Part shown: positions 1-17,418 of the stretch, piece by piece
Numbering within the stretch: the stretch's first letter is position 1
Layout of the letters: each line of letters starts with the position of its first letter
Virus record (IMG/VR): IMGVR_UViG_3300026442_000101
DNA length: 64,000 nucleotides
DNA from: a virus
Taxonomy: Duplodnaviria; Caudoviricetes
Direction: 5' to 3' (one strand)
Position numbers and translations under genes: made by a program
Notes under the pieces: model-generated
What the model saw: only the letters and a program-made list of their open reading frames with translations
Told to the model about the DNA's origin: nothing
Databases searched by the model: none

Positions 1-118
1 TGTTGAGCGGTCGCAGTTAGGATTTCGGGTCGTACCTAAATTTTCCCCATTGCTGGGCGATGTCCTGATGTAGCGTTTTGGACGATTGCGACACTTTAGC
101 GATACCACGTTGGAAAAT

Positions 119-245
119 AGGTCTCCACCCGTGTTTTCGAGACACGGACCTCACTCATGTACCTGATCCACGCCGAACCCCGAAGGGATGGGCATGTTCG
201 GAATCGAACCGAAAGAGTGCGCTCTACCATCTGAGCTAGGCGGAG
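119..245 (-). ncRNA. Double-headed tRNA-like RNA A: outer tRNA body with a nested permuted tRNA remnant; no anticodon; A-CCU 3' end
   Basis: Minus strand reads CTCCGCC TA GCTC-AGATGGTA-GAGC G CACTC [T TTCGG-TTCGATT-CCGAA CATGCC CATCCC-TTCG-GGGTTC GGCGTG GATCAGGTACAT] GAGTG AGGTC CGTGT-CTCGAAA-ACACG GGTGGAG A CCT. Acceptor, D, anticodon and T stems all pair. Confidence 0.8.
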
Positions 246-252
246 ATAAAAC

Positions 253-978
253 TTACGCGCAGCGGTAGTTCGGGTTCTCGAGAACAACCTCGAGGTCGAA
301 GAACAGCTCGGTCTTGATGCTGGACGGCACGGTGATGGAAAGCAAGGCGCGCTCAGGATCTACCTTCAGGTAGATGTCTTCAGCACCAGGGATGCTGAGG
401 GTGTAGTTCTGAGTACGCTGACCTTCGATCTGCTTGATAGCAGAGAGGTCATGGGACAGCTTGATACCATCGGCCGTGCGGACGTTGTTGAAGCGGATAG
501 CGCCGACGCTGTCGGTCAGATCCAACACGCTGGGATCGCCGAAGCCGAACACGTTGAACTTACCATCGACCAACGGCAGGTTCTTGGCTTCGAGGCGACG
601 CTCGGTAGCGCGGCCAATGCGACGACGCAGGACAGTGGAGTACTTGTCCATGAACGCGCCTTGCTGCATCATCATGTCTACATCGAGATCGGAAAGACCT
701 TCAGGCTTGGCGCCCTGACCCACGTTGTAGAGGAACGAGCACAGACCTTTGTGACGCGCGGTCAGTTGCGCTTGCTCGATAATCATGCGCTGGACATGCG
801 CCGGGCGGCTGTCGATGTGACCGAGCGGCAAGTGATCTTTCAGGAACTGCTCTTCCGATTGCCAGGTTACGTTGCCGGCTTCGTCTTTGACGTTGTAGCC
901 AGGCTTACCATCTTCGCCGGATTGAGACGACCAGGCGAGGACAGTAACGTTCTTGTTCACCAGATAGTTCTGAGTCAT
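253..978 (-). CDS. Hypothetical protein; N-terminal half resembles the crAss001_48-like/DUF2829-associated phage domain
   Basis: 241-aa ORF with phage-like codon usage; GYNV...VTWQSEEQF and VQRMIIEQAQL...L.SFL motifs recalled from that family (not searched). Confidence 0.6.
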   Translation of the reverse strand: MTQNYLVNKNVTVLAWSSQSGEDGKPGYNVKDEAGNVTWQSEEQFLKDHLPLGHIDSRPAHVQRMIIEQAQLTARHKGLCSFLYNVGQGAKPEGLSDLDVDMMMQQGAFMDKYSTVLRRRIGRATERRLEAKNLPLVDGKFNVFGFGDPSVLDLTDSVGAIRFNNVRTADGIKLSHDLSAIKQIEGQRTQNYTLSIPGAEDIYLKVDPERALLSITVPSSIKTELFFDLEVVLENPNYRCA

Positions 979-1007: not shown

Positions 1008-1095
1008 AGGGCGTTCCTCGTGGATTTGAACCACGGACCTTCGGCGTGTCTTTTAGCTAAGGGGCCGACGCTCTAACCAGCTGAGCTAAGGAACG
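1008..1095 (-). ncRNA. tRNA-like RNA B with an 18-nt expanded anticodon loop and C-CCU end
   Basis: CGTTCCT TA GCTC-AGCTGGTTA-GAGC G TCGGC-[CCCTTAGCTAAAAGACAC]-GCCGA AGGTC CGTGG-TTCAAAT-CCACG AGGAACG C CCT. Confidence 0.85.
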
Positions 1096-1100
1096 AGAAT

Positions 1101-1213
1101 AGGGGCTTCCTCGAAGAATCGAACTTCGGACTTCCGCCAGGTATGGTGAGCCTGCCCCATTTAAGGGGCCAGGAGGCTCGAAGACGGCACTCTACCAACT
1201 GAGTTAAGGAAGC
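1101..1213 (-). ncRNA. tRNA-like RNA C with a 44-nt structured insert replacing the anticodon loop and C-CCU end
   Basis: GCTTCCT TA ACTC-AGTTGGTA-GAGT G CCGTC-[TTC GAGCCT CCTG GCCCC TTAAAT GGGGC AGGCTC ACCATACCT]-GGCGG AAGTC CGAAG-TTCGATT-CTTCG AGGAAGC C CCT. Confidence 0.85.
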
Positions 1214-1220
1214 ATGTAGC

Positions 1221-1496
1221 TTAAAGCAAACCTTCCGAGATCATGAACTGTTCGAGGTCATCAAAGAAACCATCGTACAGGATTTCGGTACCGGCAAAAC
1301 CTTTCCAGCGCCACCACTTAGGTTCTTTACCCATAGCGGTGATGCTTTCTTCGGTTTGCTTTCTGAAGAAATTACCGACCTTATCGAACGCAACGAGGTC
1401 GGTGGTGTAGAGATCCCCGTGGACGTGCAGCAGCCTGATTATCTTGGCTTCCAGTTCTGGACTAACCTCGAGTTCTTTCAGTTGCTTATTGCGCAT
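1221..1496 (-). CDS. Hypothetical protein (~91 aa)
   Basis: The ORF-track start (1553) lies inside tRNA-like RNA D; the first ATG outside it is at 1496 (MRNKQLKELE...). Confidence 0.6.
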   Translation of the reverse strand: MRNKQLKELEVSPELEAKIIRLLHVHGDLYTTDLVAFDKVGNFFRKQTEESITAMGKEPKWWRWKGFAGTEILYDGFFDDLEQFMISEGLL

Positions 1497-1513
1497 CACA
1501 AGTTTCTCTGAAT

Positions 1514-1664
1514 AGGGAGCACTGACTGGAATTGAACCAGTGACCTTCGTCAAGTTGGCCTTACGCTCTAACCAACTGAGCTAATCACCCATACGGGCGA
1601 TGCCGGACTCGAACCGGCGACCTTAAGGGAGGGACGACGCTCTACCAAACTGAGCTACAGTGCT
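1514..1664 (-). ncRNA. Double-headed tRNA-like RNA D: outer tRNA split at the anticodon around a complete circularly permuted (Val-like) tRNA body; C-CCU end
   Basis: AGCACTG TA GCTC-AGTTTGGTA-GAGC G TCGTC CCTC CCTTA AGGTC GCCGG-TTCGAGT-CCGGC ATCGCCC GTAT GGGTGAT TA GCTC-AGTTGGTTA-GAGC G TAAGG CCAACTT GACGA AGGTC ACTGG-TTCAATT-CCAGT CAGTGCT C CCT. Pairings cross as AGCACTG/CAGTGCT, TCGTC/GACGA, TAAGG/CCTTA and GGGTGAT/ATCGCCC. Confidence 0.9.
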
Positions 1665-1671
1665 ATTGAAT

Positions 1672-1821
1672 AGGTAACTCTAGCAGGGAATCGAACCCGC
1701 TGCCTTCCTCATGTTTGCGTCTACCAATTCCGCCATTGGCCGATAGTGCCGGCCAAGCAGGACTCGAACCTGCAATCCTTTTCAGGAAGGTGAGGACGCT
1801 CTACCAATGAGCTACAGAGTT
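1672..1821 (-). ncRNA. Double-headed tRNA-like RNA E: outer tRNA with a nested permuted Leu-type (class II) tRNA body; A-CCU end
   Basis: AACTCTG TA GCTC-ATTGGTA-GAGC G TCCTCA CCT TCCT-GAAA-AGGA TT GCAGG-TTCGAGT-CCTGC TTGGCCG GCACTAT CGGCCAA TG GCGGAATTGGTAGACGC AAACA TGAGGA AGGCA GCGGG-TTCGATT-CCCTGC TAGAGTT A CCT. TGGCGGAATTGGTAGACGC plus a variable-arm hairpin is tRNA-Leu-like. Confidence 0.88.
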
Positions 1822-1831
1822 AGAATAAGCG

Positions 1832-2115
1832 CCTGGGGAGGACATTCCCCAGGTCTTGCCACTAATTACCCTAGTGGCCAAGGTGCCTTCATATCGCTTC
1901 AGGCAGGTTTGCGCGGTACTAGCTAGTGTCTGACCATGCTAGAACAGTGCTCGGCATGTGCGGCGCTGGCGCTTCCCTGATAACTCAAAGCCAACAGACT
2001 GGCTCCTCGTCGTCGTAGGGTCTAATGTAACTACAAAGCCTTACGTGCAGCTATAGCGCCTCGGGTAGGGAGGGCACGGGGCTAGGATCTTAGGCTTGGC
2101 ATAGGAGTACCGAGC
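1832..2115 (-). ncRNA. Putative structured non-coding RNA (~285 nt) inside the tRNA cluster
   Basis: No ORF in the track. Long-range helix 2106-2115/1911-1920 (9 of 10 bp), hairpins at 1832-1853 and 1856-1881, and further internal stems. Strand is inferred from the flanking tRNAs. Confidence 0.5.
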
Positions 2116-2123
2116 TTCTGATT

Positions 2124-12317: not shown

Positions 12318-14381
12318 TTACGCGACTTTCGAATTGCCGTGCAGTTCGAACCACCGGTCAGTAGTTTCGGTGATGTGCTGATCGACCTTCGCACAGATGT
12401 CGGTGTGGTTAGGATCAACCACGAAACCGCCATCCATGAAGATCGGTTTCAGCAGACCAGACTTGACGTGGATCTCGGCGATCTTCATATCTTGCTCTTG
12501 GTTGAGCACGATACCTTCATCGCTGTCGATCAGCGCCAGCAGGCCTTTGGCCGACTTCTTCAGACCGTCACCGGTGGCTGGGTCTTTGTACAGCTCGACC
12601 ATCTCACCATTGACCATGGTCGCGGTAGCCTTAACGGCAATGCCGAAGGTATCGCGAGTCAGGTAGTTGTAGGTGTAGGAGCCGACGCCGAACACGACGT
12701 TGCACGATGCGAAACCTTTGATCGCCAGACGACGGCAGATTTCTTCAGCGCGGTGTACGGTGATGGAATCGCCGTAGATCAGGCCGATGCGTTCGTGCAG
12801 AACTTTGTAGCCGCGTTCGGTTTCGGTACCGCCGAAGGTTTCCCACAGCAGCTCGATGGCACCCTTCTCTTGCGCCGACAGCTCGACCTGTTCGATCTTG
12901 TAGCCGTTGCGGTAAGTGCCCTTACCCATGACCATGACTTCGACACCGCGCAGCTCGAGCAGGTCATGCAGCTCACGATACGCTTTGAAGCGGACCGGGT
13001 CGGTGCAATCGGCGCTGATCGGGAACGGGTAGTCGAACAGGGCGGCGGAGCCCATCACGTCGGTCATCAGTTCGTCGTAGTAGCTGTGATCAACCGCAGG
13101 CAGATCGGCCTTGACCTGACTGATGGTGCGGGAGATCGCTTTACCGGCGATACTGGTGGCTTTGTGAATCTTGCCTTCCGGATCTTTGAAGTAGACGAAC
13201 TCCGGCTTGTAGTTCACCATCTGAGCTTCGGCAGCAAGCTGGTCCAGGATTTCCACGCCGCAGATGATTTCTACAGGATCGCCCGAGTCAGGACGGATGA
13301 CCAGCTTGGCCATGCCGTTCTCGTCAGGCAGACGAGCCAGGATCTCTTCCTTCAGCGAAGGCAGGACCGAGGTCAGTACGCCAAAGAAGTCGAAGCTGTC
13401 GCACACCAGGCCCAGCATGCCGGTCTTGAACTTGACGGTCAACATTTCCTTGATGAAGCCACGCTCTGCTTCCAGGCGCATGCCTTTCAGTTCAGAGAGC
13501 AGCTCTTCTTCGGTAGCGCCTTCGGCTCGACGAGCCTTGACCATCTGACGCAGCCGACTCAGGATGTTCGCGGTTGCCACCGAGTGCTCAGTCGCAGGAA
13601 TGGTACCTGCGATCATCACCTTCTCGGCATCGCCGTTGTACATCTGCTCGATGTAGTCGATGGCCGGCATGGTATCACTGCCGGTGAACACGCGCAGGTG
13701 AGCCGCGCCGCAACGAGCGCCATCTTCCATACCCGACATGCCACGGTACGAGAAGTCGTGAGCCTGGAACTTGACGAAGTCGGTAGGCACGCCGGTGATC
13801 TTGGCCCACTTGGTCAGGACGCGACGGTACTCGAACGCAATGGTGCCGACGGTAACCTGTTTCCAGGTCATGTTCGACATGATGGTTTCGAGGAACTCGG
13901 CCAGCCAGAAGAACTCGGAGCCTTCATCGATGACATTACCGTTGCTGTCGTAGATGACGTACATAGGCACGCCAATCGGCAGACGGGTACCTTCTTCCAC
14001 GCCCAGGATACGCAGCGGCAGGTGACCGATATCGTGCAGGTTGGCAAGGGACTTGGCCGATACCTTGTCTTTGCCGATGTAGGTGTCGCAGCGGCGCTTG
14101 AACTTGTAGAGCACGTCGGACTTCGGCTTGCTGAAGAAGCTCTCTTCCCACATGCTGACGATTTCATGCAGCGCGGCTACGTGACCGGTGACCAGGATCT
14201 TACGGTCCCACATCGAACTACAACTCGGCGATCGAGCGAAGATCTTGTCGCTACGCGCGGTGCTGTTGGCGTAGAGGAACGACGAACCGTCGGGATACAT
14301 CGGACCATGGCCTTGTTTGTAGCCATCGGTACCGGTAGGGCCGAACATCTTGAAAGCTTTGAACAGTTTCTTGAGAGACAT
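12318..14381 (-). CDS. nadV: Nicotinamide phosphoribosyltransferase-like protein (NAMPT; Namat-like in NARP1)
   Basis: TDGYKQGH, HDFSYRG, GSDT, PATEHSV, DSFDFF, VIRPDSGDP, GLIYGDSIT, FGVGSY, TRDTFG.A.K and KKSAKG motifs; two insertions give 687 aa. Confidence 0.93.
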   Translation of the reverse strand: MSLKKLFKAFKMFGPTGTDGYKQGHGPMYPDGSSFLYANSTARSDKIFARSPSCSSMWDRKILVTGHVAALHEIVSMWEESFFSKPKSDVLYKFKRRCDTYIGKDKVSAKSLANLHDIGHLPLRILGVEEGTRLPIGVPMYVIYDSNGNVIDEGSEFFWLAEFLETIMSNMTWKQVTVGTIAFEYRRVLTKWAKITGVPTDFVKFQAHDFSYRGMSGMEDGARCGAAHLRVFTGSDTMPAIDYIEQMYNGDAEKVMIAGTIPATEHSVATANILSRLRQMVKARRAEGATEEELLSELKGMRLEAERGFIKEMLTVKFKTGMLGLVCDSFDFFGVLTSVLPSLKEEILARLPDENGMAKLVIRPDSGDPVEIICGVEILDQLAAEAQMVNYKPEFVYFKDPEGKIHKATSIAGKAISRTISQVKADLPAVDHSYYDELMTDVMGSAALFDYPFPISADCTDPVRFKAYRELHDLLELRGVEVMVMGKGTYRNGYKIEQVELSAQEKGAIELLWETFGGTETERGYKVLHERIGLIYGDSITVHRAEEICRRLAIKGFASCNVVFGVGSYTYNYLTRDTFGIAVKATATMVNGEMVELYKDPATGDGLKKSAKGLLALIDSDEGIVLNQEQDMKIAEIHVKSGLLKPIFMDGGFVVDPNHTDICAKVDQHITETTDRWFELHGNSKVA

Positions 14382-15597: not shown

Positions 15598-17418
15598 TTA
15601 TACAGCGACAGGGATGTCCATGAACGGACCGTGGGTATAGCCGGTGATCTCAACATCGCTGAACTTGATGTCGTCGATGTTGTCGAACTTACCGTTGATG
15701 ACCATGCGGGCATCGAAGTCACCGTCGGAGTCGCGCCAGATCAGCTCTTTGATCGCATCGACCTGGTTGAGGTAGATGTGAGCATTGACGCCGACCGTTA
15801 CGAGTTCCATCGGAGCGTGGTTGGTGACGTGAGCTACCATGTGCAGCAGGTAGGCGTACTGAGCTACGTTGAACACGGCTCCCAGCGGCAGGTCGCTGGA
15901 ACGCAACAGGACGAAGCAGTTCAGGCCACGACGCGGAATGTCTTGCTTGTCGAGATATTCATCGACGCTACCAGCACCGCCTTGGGGAAGCTCGACGTCA
16001 TCGCGATGTTTGTACTTCAGCAGCTTCACGCGTTGCGCCATGGTGAGCACTTGCGAGGTGAACTGGAAGTACAGGTGACATGGAGGAAGCGCTGCCTGCC
16101 AGGTACGGCCGGGGTTGTGAGCAGTCACGATGATCCGACGGTCATCCGGGTTGGTGCGTAGCGTATCGATACAGTTCTGCAACTGGTCGATGCTGCGGTG
16201 CATGACCGAGTGACCGAGAGTGGTGAACTCTGGCTGAATCTCGCCCCACTTCAAGTAGCCCTGCTTGATGTAGTCGGAGAAGCTAGGGACGGCATTGTCA
16301 GCATTGGACACTACTTGCCAATCCTGCCATTTGCGCCACTGTGCGCCGTAACCACCCGCACCGATGTCAGCTTCAAGCAGAGGCCACGCATTGATGCCGA
16401 AGAAGTCCAGCAGTTTCTCTACCCGTTCCACTTGGGCGTTGTTGAGGATATCGTCCTCGAACTTGCCGTTGCGGAACACGACCACCGGGACGGTCTTGGT
16501 TTCAGCAGGATCGTCCTCACCCATCATGATAGCGCCAATGATTCGGCTCCATTCATGTTCGCGGTTCTTCGACAGGCGCGCCAACCGACGCTTGAGCGAC
16601 AGGCGCTTCGGCACGTTACGGCGGCGTGGGATGCCGCTGTAGTCGAGGATGTGGTTGAAACCGTCGACCTGGTCGCGATCGAACCCGAAGTTACTGGCGA
16701 TGTTCGGATGCTTGAAGTCCAGGTACTCGTACGGCTCACGACCACCGCCCGGATGGAACCCATGGAGGAACGGCACCACCATGTAGACCTTCCCCGTCTG
16801 TATAGCCAGCTCGATACGTTCTTGGGTGGTGAGTGTGTCGCCTTCCACAGCGTCCCAGAACTCGTACACGCGAGCTACGCCAAACTGGTCAAGGAACTTG
16901 TGGATCTCATGGATGTCAGCATCGGCCAGATTGGAGTAAGTCACCTGCTTCGAGCTTCGCCCGGGCAGCAGCGAAAGTCTTTCGGGACCACCAATGCCGC
17001 TGATCTCGATGCGACGTTCGATGAACTTCTGGATCGCCTCGGTATTTTCGAGGGTGGTGCACGACAGGTCGATACGCTGCTGGCAAGTGCGGCGCCTGAT
17101 GCGCGGCTCATCGTACTTGTCGGTGCCCTTGATGAACCAGCTGTCCCAGATACCTACCTTGTTGTCGCGCAGGTACTTGATGTTGGTGTTACCGGAGACG
17201 AACCAATGCATCTCGTGCTGGAACTTCTCAGGTAGGATACCGCGCAGGCTGATGATCGGCATCTGACCGAACTGGCAGTCAAAGCGCATGACCGCTGCGT
17301 GAGTGGCGTAGGTACCCACCCCGGTGCGGTCCTCTTGGAACCAGCCGTGATCGAGGCAATGGCGATACTTGTCGACGAACTGAGCATCAACAAGGTTGTG
17401 GATTACTGGATCGGACAT
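15598..17418 (-). CDS. thyA: Thymidylate synthase with large insertions
   Basis: DRTGVGT, EMHWFVSG.TN, IWDSW, YGAQWR, NPDDRRIIV, LPPCH..FQF, RSSD..LG..FNVAQY and NAHIYLNQ motifs. Confidence 0.96.
   Translation of the reverse strand: MSDPVIHNLVDAQFVDKYRHCLDHGWFQEDRTGVGTYATHAAVMRFDCQFGQMPIISLRGILPEKFQHEMHWFVSGNTNIKYLRDNKVGIWDSWFIKGTDKYDEPRIRRRTCQQRIDLSCTTLENTEAIQKFIERRIEISGIGGPERLSLLPGRSSKQVTYSNLADADIHEIHKFLDQFGVARVYEFWDAVEGDTLTTQERIELAIQTGKVYMVVPFLHGFHPGGGREPYEYLDFKHPNIASNFGFDRDQVDGFNHILDYSGIPRRRNVPKRLSLKRRLARLSKNREHEWSRIIGAIMMGEDDPAETKTVPVVVFRNGKFEDDILNNAQVERVEKLLDFFGINAWPLLEADIGAGGYGAQWRKWQDWQVVSNADNAVPSFSDYIKQGYLKWGEIQPEFTTLGHSVMHRSIDQLQNCIDTLRTNPDDRRIIVTAHNPGRTWQAALPPCHLYFQFTSQVLTMAQRVKLLKYKHRDDVELPQGGAGSVDEYLDKQDIPRRGLNCFVLLRSSDLPLGAVFNVAQYAYLLHMVAHVTNHAPMELVTVGVNAHIYLNQVDAIKELIWRDSDGDFDARMVINGKFDNIDDIKFSDVEITGYTHGPFMDIPVAV

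What the first reader, a model, noticed from the sequence alone, without database searches (positions are those of the whole stretch)
1514..1664. Complete circularly permuted tRNA nested inside another tRNA's anticodon arm
Seen: the order is outer 5' half, inner 3' half, GTAT, inner 5' half, outer 3' half. A linear scan would call two tandem tRNAs with unpaired acceptor and anticodon stems, but every stem pairs once the halves are crossed: AGCACTG/CAGTGCT, TCGTC/GACGA, TAAGG/CCTTA, GGGTGAT/ATCGCCC. The two anticodon stems are joined head-to-head by a 4x7 internal loop (CCTC/CCAACTT), and the inner acceptor is sealed by a 4-nt loop. The inner 5' strand GGGTGATTAGCTCAG matches E. coli tRNA-Val1 as recalled. 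Inference: a rigid two-elbow RNA, or a precursor for cleavage and ligation into a linear and a circular product. No simple splice gives a canonical U33 loop, so a decoding role looks unlikely.
Basis: seen in the sequence. Interest (0 to 1): 0.9.

Follow-up and report, generated by a model that had tools for sequence, protein, structure and literature searches.

The report
Phage tRNA nested inside another tRNA
A jumbo bacteriophage encodes a conserved RNA in which a complete, circularly permuted tRNA-like body replaces the anticodon loop of a second tRNA-like body, so it has two tRNA "elbows" and no anticodon. It is most likely a tRNA mimic, not a decoder.

Summary
It lies on the minus strand of 1518-1664. 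Every quoted stem, the 4x7 internal loop and the GTAT cap are present. ARAGORN calls no tRNA here, and Rfam's tRNA model gives only sub-threshold partial hits.

Seven distinct homologues from related phiKZ-like jumbo-phage contigs keep 100% of 294 nested pair cells. Twelve pairs show double changes. In the tandem reading the crossed helices pair in only 9-49% of cells.

A second nested element lies next door at 1676-1821 and shows the same pattern. The architecture recurs, unannotated, in Xanthomonas phage RTH11 and Burkholderia phage FLC9.

The inner module resembles the tRNA-like module of YrlA (bacterial and phage Y RNA). However, the score is below Rfam's cut-off, there is no Ro60-binding stem, and RTH11 has no TROVE gene. 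There is no bulge-helix-bulge motif. No splice gives a conserved U33 anticodon loop, so a decoding role is unlikely.

The element belongs to a set of five "tRNA-scaffolded" RNAs in the window, each followed by CCTATTY instead of CCA.

Best reading: a non-decoding double tRNA mimic, probably opened by RNase P into a two-strand complex. Its partner and role are unknown; a decoy or platform for tRNA-binding factors is my inference. It is a new variant of known tRNA mimics.

The parts
1658..1664 (-). Outer acceptor stem, 5' strand (AGCACTG)
   Evidence: Pairs with 1518-1524. Four of 7 pairs show compensatory changes in relatives (helix 1).
1639..1655 (-). Outer D arm (GCTC-AGTTTGGTA-GAGC), preceded by U8 A9
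   Evidence: Invariant stem (helix 2). G18 G19 are present. In L010 the tertiary 15:48 pair changes from G:C to A:U (read from alignment A2).
1633..1637 (-). Outer anticodon stem, 5' strand (TCGTC)
   Evidence: Pairs with 1547-1551. Two of 5 pairs are compensatory (helix 3).
1629..1632 (-). Junction internal loop, 5' side (CCTC)
   Evidence: CCTC, CCAC or ACTC in relatives. A single C in RTH11.
1595..1628 (-). Inner 3' half: anticodon-stem 3' strand CCTTA, variable AGGTC, T arm GCCGG-TTCGAGT-CCGGC, acceptor 3' strand ATCGCCC
   Evidence: The T arm and CCTTA are invariant. The acceptor strand covaries with 1584-1590 (helices 4-6). Rfam YrlA partial hit at 1561-1626, 37.7 bits.
1591..1594 (-). 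Cap of the inner acceptor stem (GTAT); predicted RNase P site lies at its 3' edge
   Evidence: Replaced by 9-nt loops in relatives and a 6-nt loop in RTH11. The cleavage is inferred from M. smegmatis YrlA (PMC4201824), not shown here.
1559..1590 (-). Inner 5' half: acceptor 5' strand GGGTGAT, TA, D arm GCTC-AGTTGGTTA-GAGC, G, anticodon-stem 5' strand TAAGG
   Evidence: helices 4, 6 and 7. The inner acceptor is GGCCCAT or GACCCAT in relatives, with matching changes on the partner strand.
1552..1558 (-). Junction internal loop, 3' side (CCAACTT)
   Evidence: 7-9 nt in relatives (CCAACTT, CTACACTT, CCAAACTT, CCACAACTC); CAACTA in RTH11. The 3' side is always the longer one.
1518..1551 (-). Outer 3' half: anticodon-stem 3' strand GACGA, variable AGGTC, T arm ACTGG-TTCAATT-CCAGT, acceptor 3' strand CAGTGCT
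   Evidence: helices 1, 3 and 8. Three compensatory pairs in the T stem.
1510..1517 (-). Discriminator C plus trailer CCTATTC
   Evidence: Five of the 6 CCTATTY sites in the window directly follow the five odd tRNA-like elements. The canonical tRNAs of the cluster have CCA.
1676..1821 (-). Second nested element (pair 2): outer tRNA body whose insert is a permuted tRNA-Leu-like module (T arm, 7-bp capped acceptor, D arm TGGCGGAATTGGTAGACGC)
   Evidence: 100% of 210 cells paired, 12 pairs with double changes, 0 of 500 shuffles. The tandem acceptor helices pair in 43-48% of cells. R1 gives 89.5 bits.
1104..1213 (-). X2: tRNA body with a 41-nt covarying hairpin in place of the anticodon loop
   Evidence: Rfam tRNA 48 bits with a 41-nt insert. 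The homologue in L001 has compensatory changes, read by eye.
1011..1095 (-). X1: tRNA body with an 18-nt stretch between the anticodon-stem strands, forming a short hairpin with an AGCTAA loop
   Evidence: Rfam tRNA 54.7 bits with a 17-nt insert. ARAGORN reports 'tRNA-???'. The hairpin stem covaries (CTT/AAG, CGT/ACG, TTTT/AAAA), read by eye.
123..245 (-). N3: tRNA body downstream of the Sequestin gene; its insert holds a T arm and a long TTCG-capped acceptor-like hairpin, with no D stem
   Evidence: Sequence. Homologues score 60-72 bits with R1 and were read.

Best explanation
This is a conserved, non-decoding structured RNA of a phiKZ-like jumbo phage. It is transcribed from the minus strand as part of a tRNA cluster.

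An outer tRNA body has its acceptor, D and T arms and its anticodon stem. In place of an anticodon loop it carries a complete circularly permuted tRNA-like module. The module's order is T arm, 7-bp acceptor stem closed by a short loop, D arm, and its own 5-bp 'anticodon' stem. An asymmetric internal loop joins the two anticodon stems tail to tail. The molecule therefore presents two tRNA elbows and two acceptor helices but no anticodon.

Inferred mechanism:
- Host RNase P cuts at the outer 5' end. It probably also cuts inside the cap of the inner acceptor stem, as it does in M. smegmatis YrlA.
- The product would be a base-paired complex of two strands of about 76 and 80 nt (before 3' trimming). 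Each strand is a 5' half of one tRNA fused to the 3' half of the other.
- The 3' ends could then be trimmed and given CCA.
- The RNA would act through tRNA mimicry, as a decoy or platform for factors that read the tRNA elbow and acceptor end rather than the anticodon.

It is one of a set of 'tRNA-scaffolded' RNAs that sit around an anti-defence sponge gene, so an infection-specific role is plausible. That role could be counter-defence or manipulation of host tRNA-handling enzymes.

Shown: the sequence, the nested fold, its conservation, its recurrence in other phages, and the absence of an anticodon loop. Inferred: the processing, the partners and the biological role.
For: Structure:
- 294 of 294 pair cells are standard pairs and 12 pairs are compensatory across 7 homologues. 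Slid and shuffled controls fail.
- The nested energy is within 2-3.6 kcal/mol of the MFE in all seven, against +0.8 to -19 for the tandem model.
- An independent neighbouring element has the same design.
- Xanthomonas phage RTH11 gives a full-length match: 99.2 bits with 2 non-standard pairs. Its virion protein is only about 33% identical to the window's.
- Burkholderia phage FLC9 has a pair-2-like element.

tRNA likeness: U8, A14, G18 G19, the T-loop TTCRANT and the 15:48 pair are kept in both bodies. In L010 the 15:48 pair changes from G:C to A:U.

Non-decoding: ARAGORN and Rfam tRNA fail. The junction strands vary in length, so no conserved 7-nt loop exists.

Mimicry precedent: the inner module hits the tRNA-like part of Rfam YrlA at 37.7 and 44.2 bits. 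It is 82% identical over 60 nt to a YrlA-like RNA of Xanthomonas phage Tenjo, which lies beside a TROVE gene. M. smegmatis YrlA, with a 7-bp acceptor, is cut by RNase P and receives CCA in vivo (PMC4201824).

Context: the window holds five odd tRNA-like elements that share the trailer CCTATTY. They surround a Sequestin-family sponge gene.
Against: - No expression, processing or binding data exist.
- No partner protein is identified. The window holds no TROVE, RNA ligase or nucleotidyltransferase among the 40 ORFs scanned. The other roughly 180 kb of the genome could not be searched.
- The acceptor sequences and discriminators are not conserved, so no particular synthetase identity is under selection. 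The mimic may not need charged ends at all.
- A 4-nt cap (GTAT) may be a poor RNase P substrate.
- The element could serve mainly as a processing or stabilising signal for neighbouring mRNAs.
- Only 7 closely related sequences plus two distant ones underlie the covariation.
Confidence: 0.55

Rival explanations
1. It is a precursor of two decoding tRNAs. An endonuclease cuts both strands of the junction and a ligase rejoins them, as with permuted or split tRNA genes of red algae and archaea. This would release a linear outer tRNA and a circular inner intermediate, which RNase P and RNase Z then open.
For: The gene order (3' half before 5' half) matches permuted tRNA genes (PMC3978253, abstract seen). 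Both bodies have perfect 7-bp acceptor stems and canonical elbows. In RTH11 the junction nucleotides add up to exactly 7 (C + CAACTA), and the outer 3' end carries an encoded CCA.
Against: - There is no bulge-helix-bulge motif: a single internal loop joins the two stems directly.
- The junction supplies 11 nt in the window, 12-13 in relatives and 7 in RTH11. Two anticodon loops need 14.
- The lengths vary among relatives.
- Every possible 7-mer has C33, and none is conserved.
- RTH11 encodes no RtcB and no PF09414 RNA ligase.
- From general knowledge, bacteria lack the archaeal and eukaryal splicing endonuclease.
Confidence: 0.06
2. It is a Y RNA of the YrlA family. It binds a Ro60/Rsr ring and tethers it to exoribonucleases or to RNA-repair enzymes.
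For: The best non-tRNA Rfam hit is YrlA. The inner module has the YrlA order: T arm, capped acceptor, D arm. It is 82% identical over 60 nt to the module of phage Tenjo's YrlA-like RNAs, which lie directly upstream of a TROVE gene. Chen et al. found YrlA in phages (PMC4201824).
Against: - Scores of 37.7 and 44.2 bits are far below the 69-bit cut-off and cover only the tRNA-like part (model positions 23-85 and 18-91).
- The flanks form a second tRNA body, not a Ro60-binding helix.
- The complete RTH11 genome has no TROVE match, while the same search found Tenjo's gene.
- No TROVE was found among the 40 window ORFs scanned.
Confidence: 0.1
3. The tRNA-like elements mainly act as processing punctuation and end-protectors. 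RNase P and 3' processing at each element would release and stabilise the small mRNAs lying between them (Sequestin, the 91-aa ORF). On this view the nested shape is a by-product of duplication and recombination among tRNA genes.
For: The Sequestin ORF is flanked closely by X1 upstream and N3 downstream. In the window a 91-aa ORF lies between pair 1 and X2. All the elements share one trailer motif.
Against: - Ordinary tRNAs would serve this purpose.
- The inner modules are the most conserved parts: T arm, D arm and inner anticodon stem are invariant across phages whose neighbouring protein is only 51% identical.
- Three different inserts independently keep a T arm plus acceptor hairpin, in pair 1, pair 2 and N3. 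The same holds in RTH11 and FLC9. This points to selection on the insert itself.
Confidence: 0.15
4. It is a non-functional scar: two tandem tRNA genes scrambled by recombination, or an assembly chimera.
For: Contigs of relatives often end near the cluster, so the region is hard to assemble.
Against: - The protein of the adjacent Sequestin gene is recorded on 35 contigs. One 246-kb ENA contig carries the identical element.
- Homologues of the element occur in JGI, ENA and Logan assemblies and in two isolated phage genomes.
- The crossed helices keep 100% pairing through 12 double changes.
Confidence: 0.02

Closest known systems
YrlA, the bacterial and phage Y RNA (Rfam RF02553; Chen et al. 2014, PMC4201824)
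   Same: Both have a circularly permuted tRNA-like module: T arm, acceptor-like stem closed by a loop, D arm, and a stem in the place of the anticodon stem. Both occur in phages. YrlA versions with a 7-bp acceptor are cut by RNase P and receive CCA. The inner module is 82% identical over 60 nt to that of phage Tenjo.
   Different: The continuation of the stem is a second complete tRNA body, not a Ro60-binding helix. The score is below Rfam's cut-off. There is no TROVE gene in RTH11 and none in the scanned part of the window. Two such elements lie in tandem, among other tRNA-scaffolded RNAs.
Circularly permuted tRNA genes of Cyanidioschyzon merolae, some green algae and Thermofilum pendens (Soma 2014, PMC3978253)
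   Same: The 3' half of a tRNA is encoded upstream of its 5' half, with the acceptor ends joined by a short linker.
   Different: Those genes yield decoding tRNAs through a bulge-helix-bulge motif, the splicing endonuclease, ligation and a circular intermediate. Here there is no such motif, no reconstructible anticodon loop, and a bacterial host. The permuted unit is also embedded in another tRNA.
Two-piece tmRNA from circularly permuted ssrA genes (named from my own knowledge; not looked up or tested here)
   Same: This is a bacterial precedent for a permuted tRNA-like domain whose acceptor loop is excised, leaving two base-paired RNA strands.
   Different: There is no tag reading frame and no G3:U70 alanine identity pair. 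Both arms here are full tRNA bodies with D arms.
Engineered 'tRNA scaffold' for recombinant RNA (Ponchon and Dardel method; PMC3401473, PMC3753655)
   Same: A cargo RNA replaces the anticodon loop of a tRNA, so the chimera is recognised and processed as a tRNA and is stable in bacteria.
   Different: This one is natural, conserved and phage-encoded. The cargo is itself a tRNA top half.

Membership tests
Canonical tRNA (Rfam RF00005) | Contiguous cloverleaf that scores at or above the 29-bit gathering score, or is called by ARAGORN | tested here: not met
   ARAGORN makes no call in 1514-1664. Rfam gives only partial hits of 27.0 and 25.2 bits covering model positions 8-63.
Canonical tRNA (Rfam RF00005) | 7-nt anticodon loop with U33 closing a 5-bp stem | tested here: not met
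   The outer stem closes on a 4x7 internal loop plus the inner module. The junction varies in length among relatives, and no conserved 7-mer with U33 can be formed.
Canonical tRNA (Rfam RF00005) | Acceptor, D and T arms with elbow-forming nucleotides (U8, A14, G18 G19, T-loop, 15:48 pair) | tested here: met
   Present in both bodies. The 15:48 pair of the outer body changes from G:C to A:U in L010.
YrlA / Y RNA (Rfam RF02553) | Permuted tRNA-like module: T arm, capped acceptor-like stem, D arm | tested here: met
   Alignment to YrlA model positions 23-85. Covariation in the capped acceptor stem (helix 6).
YrlA / Y RNA (Rfam RF02553) | Score at or above the 69-bit gathering score over the whole model, including the Ro60-binding stem | tested here: not met
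   37.7 bits in the window and 44.2 bits in RTH11, over the tRNA-like part only. The flanks fold as a tRNA body.
YrlA / Y RNA (Rfam RF02553) | Encoded with, or near, a Ro60/Rsr (TROVE) gene | tested here: not met
   No TROVE match in the complete RTH11 genome, while the same search found phage Tenjo's gene beside its YrlA-like RNAs. None among 40 window ORFs. The rest of the window's own genome could not be searched.
Circularly permuted tRNA genes (C. merolae type) | 3' half encoded upstream of the 5' half of the same tRNA | tested here: met
   The order is confirmed and the halves covary.
Circularly permuted tRNA genes (C. merolae type) | Bulge-helix-bulge motif where the precursor ends meet, cut by the splicing endonuclease | tested here: not met
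   The two anticodon stems are joined by one asymmetric internal loop: 4x7 here and 1x6 in RTH11. There is no 3-nt bulge, 4-bp helix, 3-nt bulge arrangement.
Circularly permuted tRNA genes (C. merolae type) | Maturation to a decoding tRNA through ligation and a circular intermediate | not testable with these tools
   This needs RNA data. Indirect evidence is against it: too few junction nucleotides for two loops, and no RtcB or PF09414 ligase in RTH11.
tmRNA (two-piece, permuted) | G3:U70 alanine identity pair and a tag-peptide reading frame | tested here: not met
   The inner acceptor has G3:C70 here (C3:G70 in relatives) and the outer has C3:G70. ARAGORN finds no tmRNA. Rfam tmRNA hits in related loci are short fragments of 15-21 bits.

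The most novel reading that the evidence does not exclude
RNase P opens the inner acceptor cap. The mature form is then a 'domain-swapped' heterodimer of two tRNA-sized strands. It carries two CCA-competent acceptor ends and two elbows, held tail to tail. Jumbo phages would use a set of such tRNA-scaffolded mimics as RNA-based counter-defence, or as sponges, against host factors that recognise the tRNA body or tail. This would be an RNA counterpart of the protein sponge (Sequestin) encoded in the same cluster.
Probability: 0.2. Interest if true: 0.9.

Novelty: new variant of a known kind. Interest (0 to 1): 0.72.

Why it matters
tRNA mimics are known (YrlA, tmRNA, viral tRNA-like structures), and so are permuted tRNA genes. 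I found no description of a complete permuted tRNA nested in the anticodon arm of another tRNA. I also found no description of a conserved set of natural 'tRNA-scaffolded' RNAs in nucleus-forming jumbo phages; nine literature searches turned up none.

The elements are invisible to tRNA finders. They carry no annotation in the stretches examined of the isolated phage genomes RTH11, FLC9 and FLC4-3B.

If they work as mimics, they would point to tRNA-handling factors as targets that these phages manipulate. They would also give a natural design rule for stable two-elbow RNA scaffolds.

Because RTH11 and FLC9 are cultured, the question can be tested directly.

Tried and rejected
- Tandem-tRNA reading: rejected.
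- Splice products giving a canonical anticodon loop: I enumerated them by hand for the window and its relatives. None has U33 or is conserved.
- D-loop AGTTGG pairing with the junction CCAACT, which appears in the RNAfold MFE: not conserved in L003 or L012, so I treat it as coincidence.
- IMG/VR pattern scans: only the three related contigs carry the junction. The other nine hits of the looser pattern are ordinary tRNAs.
- Metagenome scan with the neighbouring protein: nothing new.
- Scan with the 91-aa ORF: only weak, irrelevant hits.
- Megablast of the first 20 kb against INPHARED: no relative.
- The window's own genome record could not be searched for TROVE or ligase genes.
- Model R1 on five phiKZ-like isolates: DT01's only hit is a pair of ordinary tandem tRNAs. 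LucasX and Xoo-sp14 have no hit at E<=1e-8. FLC9 has one true nested element. FLC4-3B has a hairpin-type element.
- Literature searches for permuted or nested tRNA-like RNAs in phages found no prior description. A 2026 preprint on bacterial tRNA mimics concerns other families.

Full report
**What is there**

The feature lies on the minus strand. Read 5' to 3' from 1664 down to 1518, the order is:
- the 5' half of an outer tRNA: acceptor AGCACTG, U8 A9, D arm, G26, anticodon-stem strand TCGTC;
- four bases, CCTC;
- the 3' half of an inner tRNA: anticodon-stem strand CCTTA, variable loop AGGTC, T arm, acceptor strand ATCGCCC;
- a GTAT cap;
- the inner 5' half: GGGTGAT, TA, D arm, G, TAAGG;
- seven bases, CCAACTT;
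- the outer 3' half: GACGA, AGGTC, T arm, CAGTGCT.

A discriminator C and the trailer CCTATTC follow. Every detail in the finding is correct.

ARAGORN calls no tRNA here. Rfam's tRNA model gives only two sub-threshold partial hits that lack acceptor stems.

**Is it real?**

RNAfold's minimum-energy structure contains both crossed acceptor stems. The full nested model costs -50.2 kcal/mol against an MFE of -53.8. The tandem model, keeping only its canonical pairs, gives -4.6.

The stronger test is comparative. The downstream gene (253-978, minus strand) led to related contigs in IMG/VR, JGI, ENA and Logan assemblies. The same tRNA-like cluster precedes the gene in all of them.

Seven distinct sequences align as A2. 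Under the nested model:
- all 294 pair cells are standard pairs;
- 12 pairs show changes on both sides: 4 in the outer acceptor, 2 in the outer anticodon stem, 3 in the inner acceptor, 3 in the outer T stem;
- no shuffle of 500 and no slid register comes close.

Under the tandem model the four crossed helices pair in only 9-49% of cells. The inner acceptor stem is GGGTGAT/ATCGCCC in the window. It is GGCCCAT/ATGGGTC, GGCCCAT/ATGGGCC or GACCCAT/ATGGGTC elsewhere. The most distant relative, L011, has an entirely different outer acceptor, AGTCCAT/ATGGACT. Its neighbouring protein is 51% identical to the window's.

The protein of the adjacent gene is recorded on 35 contigs. One 246-kb ENA contig carries the identical element. 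An assembly artefact is therefore excluded.

**It is not alone**

Directly upstream, at 1676-1821 on the minus strand, lies a second nested element. Its inner module has a tRNA-Leu-type D arm and a variable hairpin. Six homologues keep 100% of 210 pair cells, with 12 double changes. The inner acceptor changes at 6 of 7 pairs. The tandem alternative fails.

Three further odd elements have tRNA bodies whose anticodon loops are replaced by structured inserts:
- X2 at 1104-1213;
- X1 at 1011-1095;
- N3 at 123-245, whose insert again holds a T arm plus a capped acceptor-like hairpin.

All five are followed by CCTATTY. Five of the six occurrences of that heptamer in the window are at these positions. 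The four ordinary tRNAs of the cluster (Ile, Tyr, Asn, Gln) carry an encoded CCA.

**Whose genome is it?**

The window encodes six phiKZ-type internal head proteins, a tail tube protein, NAMPT, ThyA, Tmk and DHFR. It is therefore part of a phiKZ-like jumbo phage of about 246 kb. Its closest isolates share only 31-35% identity in a 981-aa virion protein. No whole genome is held for the window.

**Wider distribution**

A blastn search of the element against INPHARED found one unannotated match covering 90% of the query, in Xanthomonas phage RTH11. It has the same architecture, and I built covariance model R1 from A2 to test it. R1 aligns the RTH11 element end to end at 99.2 bits, with two non-standard pairs. 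Its junction is 1x6 (C / CAACTA), and its outer 3' end carries CCA. Next to it lies an N3-type element.

Burkholderia phage FLC9 has three elements in a row: a pair-2-like nested element, a hairpin type and an N3 type. Ralstonia phage FLC4-3B has a hairpin type. None carries an annotation in the stretches examined. DT01's only hit is an ordinary tandem pair of tRNAs, and LucasX and Xoo-sp14 gave no hit at E<=1e-8.

**What it resembles**

The best non-tRNA Rfam hit is YrlA, the bacterial and phage Y RNA, but only to its tRNA-like module (37.7 bits; cut-off 69). Xanthomonas phage Tenjo carries classical YrlA-like RNAs directly upstream of a TROVE (Ro60) gene. Their module is 82% identical over 60 nt to the inner module here. 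The inner module is therefore of the YrlA kind.

The element as a whole is not a YrlA. Its flanks form a tRNA, not a Ro60-binding stem. The complete RTH11 genome has no TROVE gene, and none was found among the 40 window ORFs scanned.

It is also not a permuted tRNA gene of the algal or archaeal kind. There is no bulge-helix-bulge motif. The junction supplies too few nucleotides for two anticodon loops, and their number varies. RTH11 encodes no RtcB or PF09414 ligase.

**How it most likely works**

Shown:
- a conserved fold with two complete tRNA tops;
- strongest conservation in the inner T arm, D arm and anticodon stem;
- a consistently asymmetric junction;
- no anticodon.

Inferred:
- RNase P matures the outer 5' end. 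By analogy with M. smegmatis YrlA, whose 7-bp acceptor is cut by RNase P and given CCA in vivo (PMC4201824), it may also open the inner cap. That would give a two-strand complex of swapped halves.
- The RNA would then act by tRNA mimicry on factors that read the elbow and acceptor rather than the anticodon.

The cluster surrounds a Sequestin-family gene, a family of phage immune-signal sponges. An infection-specific role, possibly counter-defence, is plausible but untested.

Rivals, in order of weight: processing punctuation for neighbouring mRNAs, a Ro60-tethering Y RNA, a precursor of decoding tRNAs, and a recombination scar.

**Verdict**

The fold is as well supported as comparative analysis of nine sequences allows. 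The function is inferred. The element is a new variant of known tRNA mimics, it recurs in cultured phages, and it can be tested directly.

Noticed in passing
window 1676-1821 (-): A second tRNA-in-tRNA element. Its inner module has a tRNA-Leu-type D arm, a variable hairpin and a 7-bp acceptor capped by GCACTAT. In the window and most relatives the outer T stem carries a bulged U.
   Followed up: yes
window 1011-1095 (-), 1104-1213 (-), 123-245 (-): Three more tRNA bodies whose anticodon loop is replaced by a structured insert: X1 (short hairpin, AGCTAA loop), X2 (long hairpin, TTAAAT loop) and N3 (T arm plus TTCG-capped acceptor-like hairpin, no D stem). Relatives have one more, E0, plus a tRNA-His that the window lacks (L001:5284-5423).
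   Followed up: partly
window 115-121, 1004-1010, 1097-1103, 1510-1516, 1668-1674 (-): The trailer CCTATTY directly follows the discriminator of all five odd tRNA-like elements. These are 5 of only 6 occurrences in the window. The ordinary tRNAs of the cluster have an encoded CCA instead. RTH11's nested element has CCA.
   Followed up: partly
window 1832-2120 (-): A roughly 290-nt non-coding stretch between tRNA-Gln and the nested elements. About 225 nt of it are almost invariant among relatives. It has a predicted long-range fold and a terminal hairpin at 1853-1832. It has no Rfam match and only 2 compensatory pairs, so the structure is unproven. RTH11 has a stretch of similar size at the equivalent position (L028:1840-2150).
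   Followed up: partly
window 253-978 (-): A gene of the Sequestin family (PF21825), a family of phage proteins that sequester immune signalling nucleotides. It sits inside the tRNA-like cluster, flanked by X1 and N3.
   Followed up: partly
window 1221-1496 (-): A 91-aa ORF with no family match, inserted between pair 1 and X2. It is present only in the window's phage; relatives have the two elements adjacent.
   Followed up: partly
window 12318-14381 (-) and 15598-17418 (-): NAMPT (687 aa) and thymidylate synthase (606 aa) are much longer than their family profiles, and their Pfam matches come in two separated stretches. This suggests large insertions, possibly inteins or extra domains.
   Followed up: no
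L029 (Xanthomonas phage Tenjo LR743531.1, 38273-39534): At least two YrlA-like RNAs (55.9 and 38.8 bits), and more look-alike repeats by eye, directly upstream of a TROVE/Ro60 gene that is annotated only as hypothetical. This is a classical Rsr-YrlA locus in a 44-kb phage.
   Followed up: partly
L042 (Burkholderia phage FLC9 LC667451.1), minus strand 2881-2415: Three tRNA-scaffolded elements in a row with no annotation. By eye, their outer acceptor stems all carry a 2-nt bulge (UU or AA) in the 3' strand, which is unlike ordinary tRNAs.
   Followed up: partly
L010, L011, L012 and other related contigs: Assemblies of related phages often break at or near the tRNA-like cluster, with contig ends about 1.2-1.8 kb upstream of the Sequestin gene. 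The cause is probably the repeated tRNA-like sequences.
   Followed up: no
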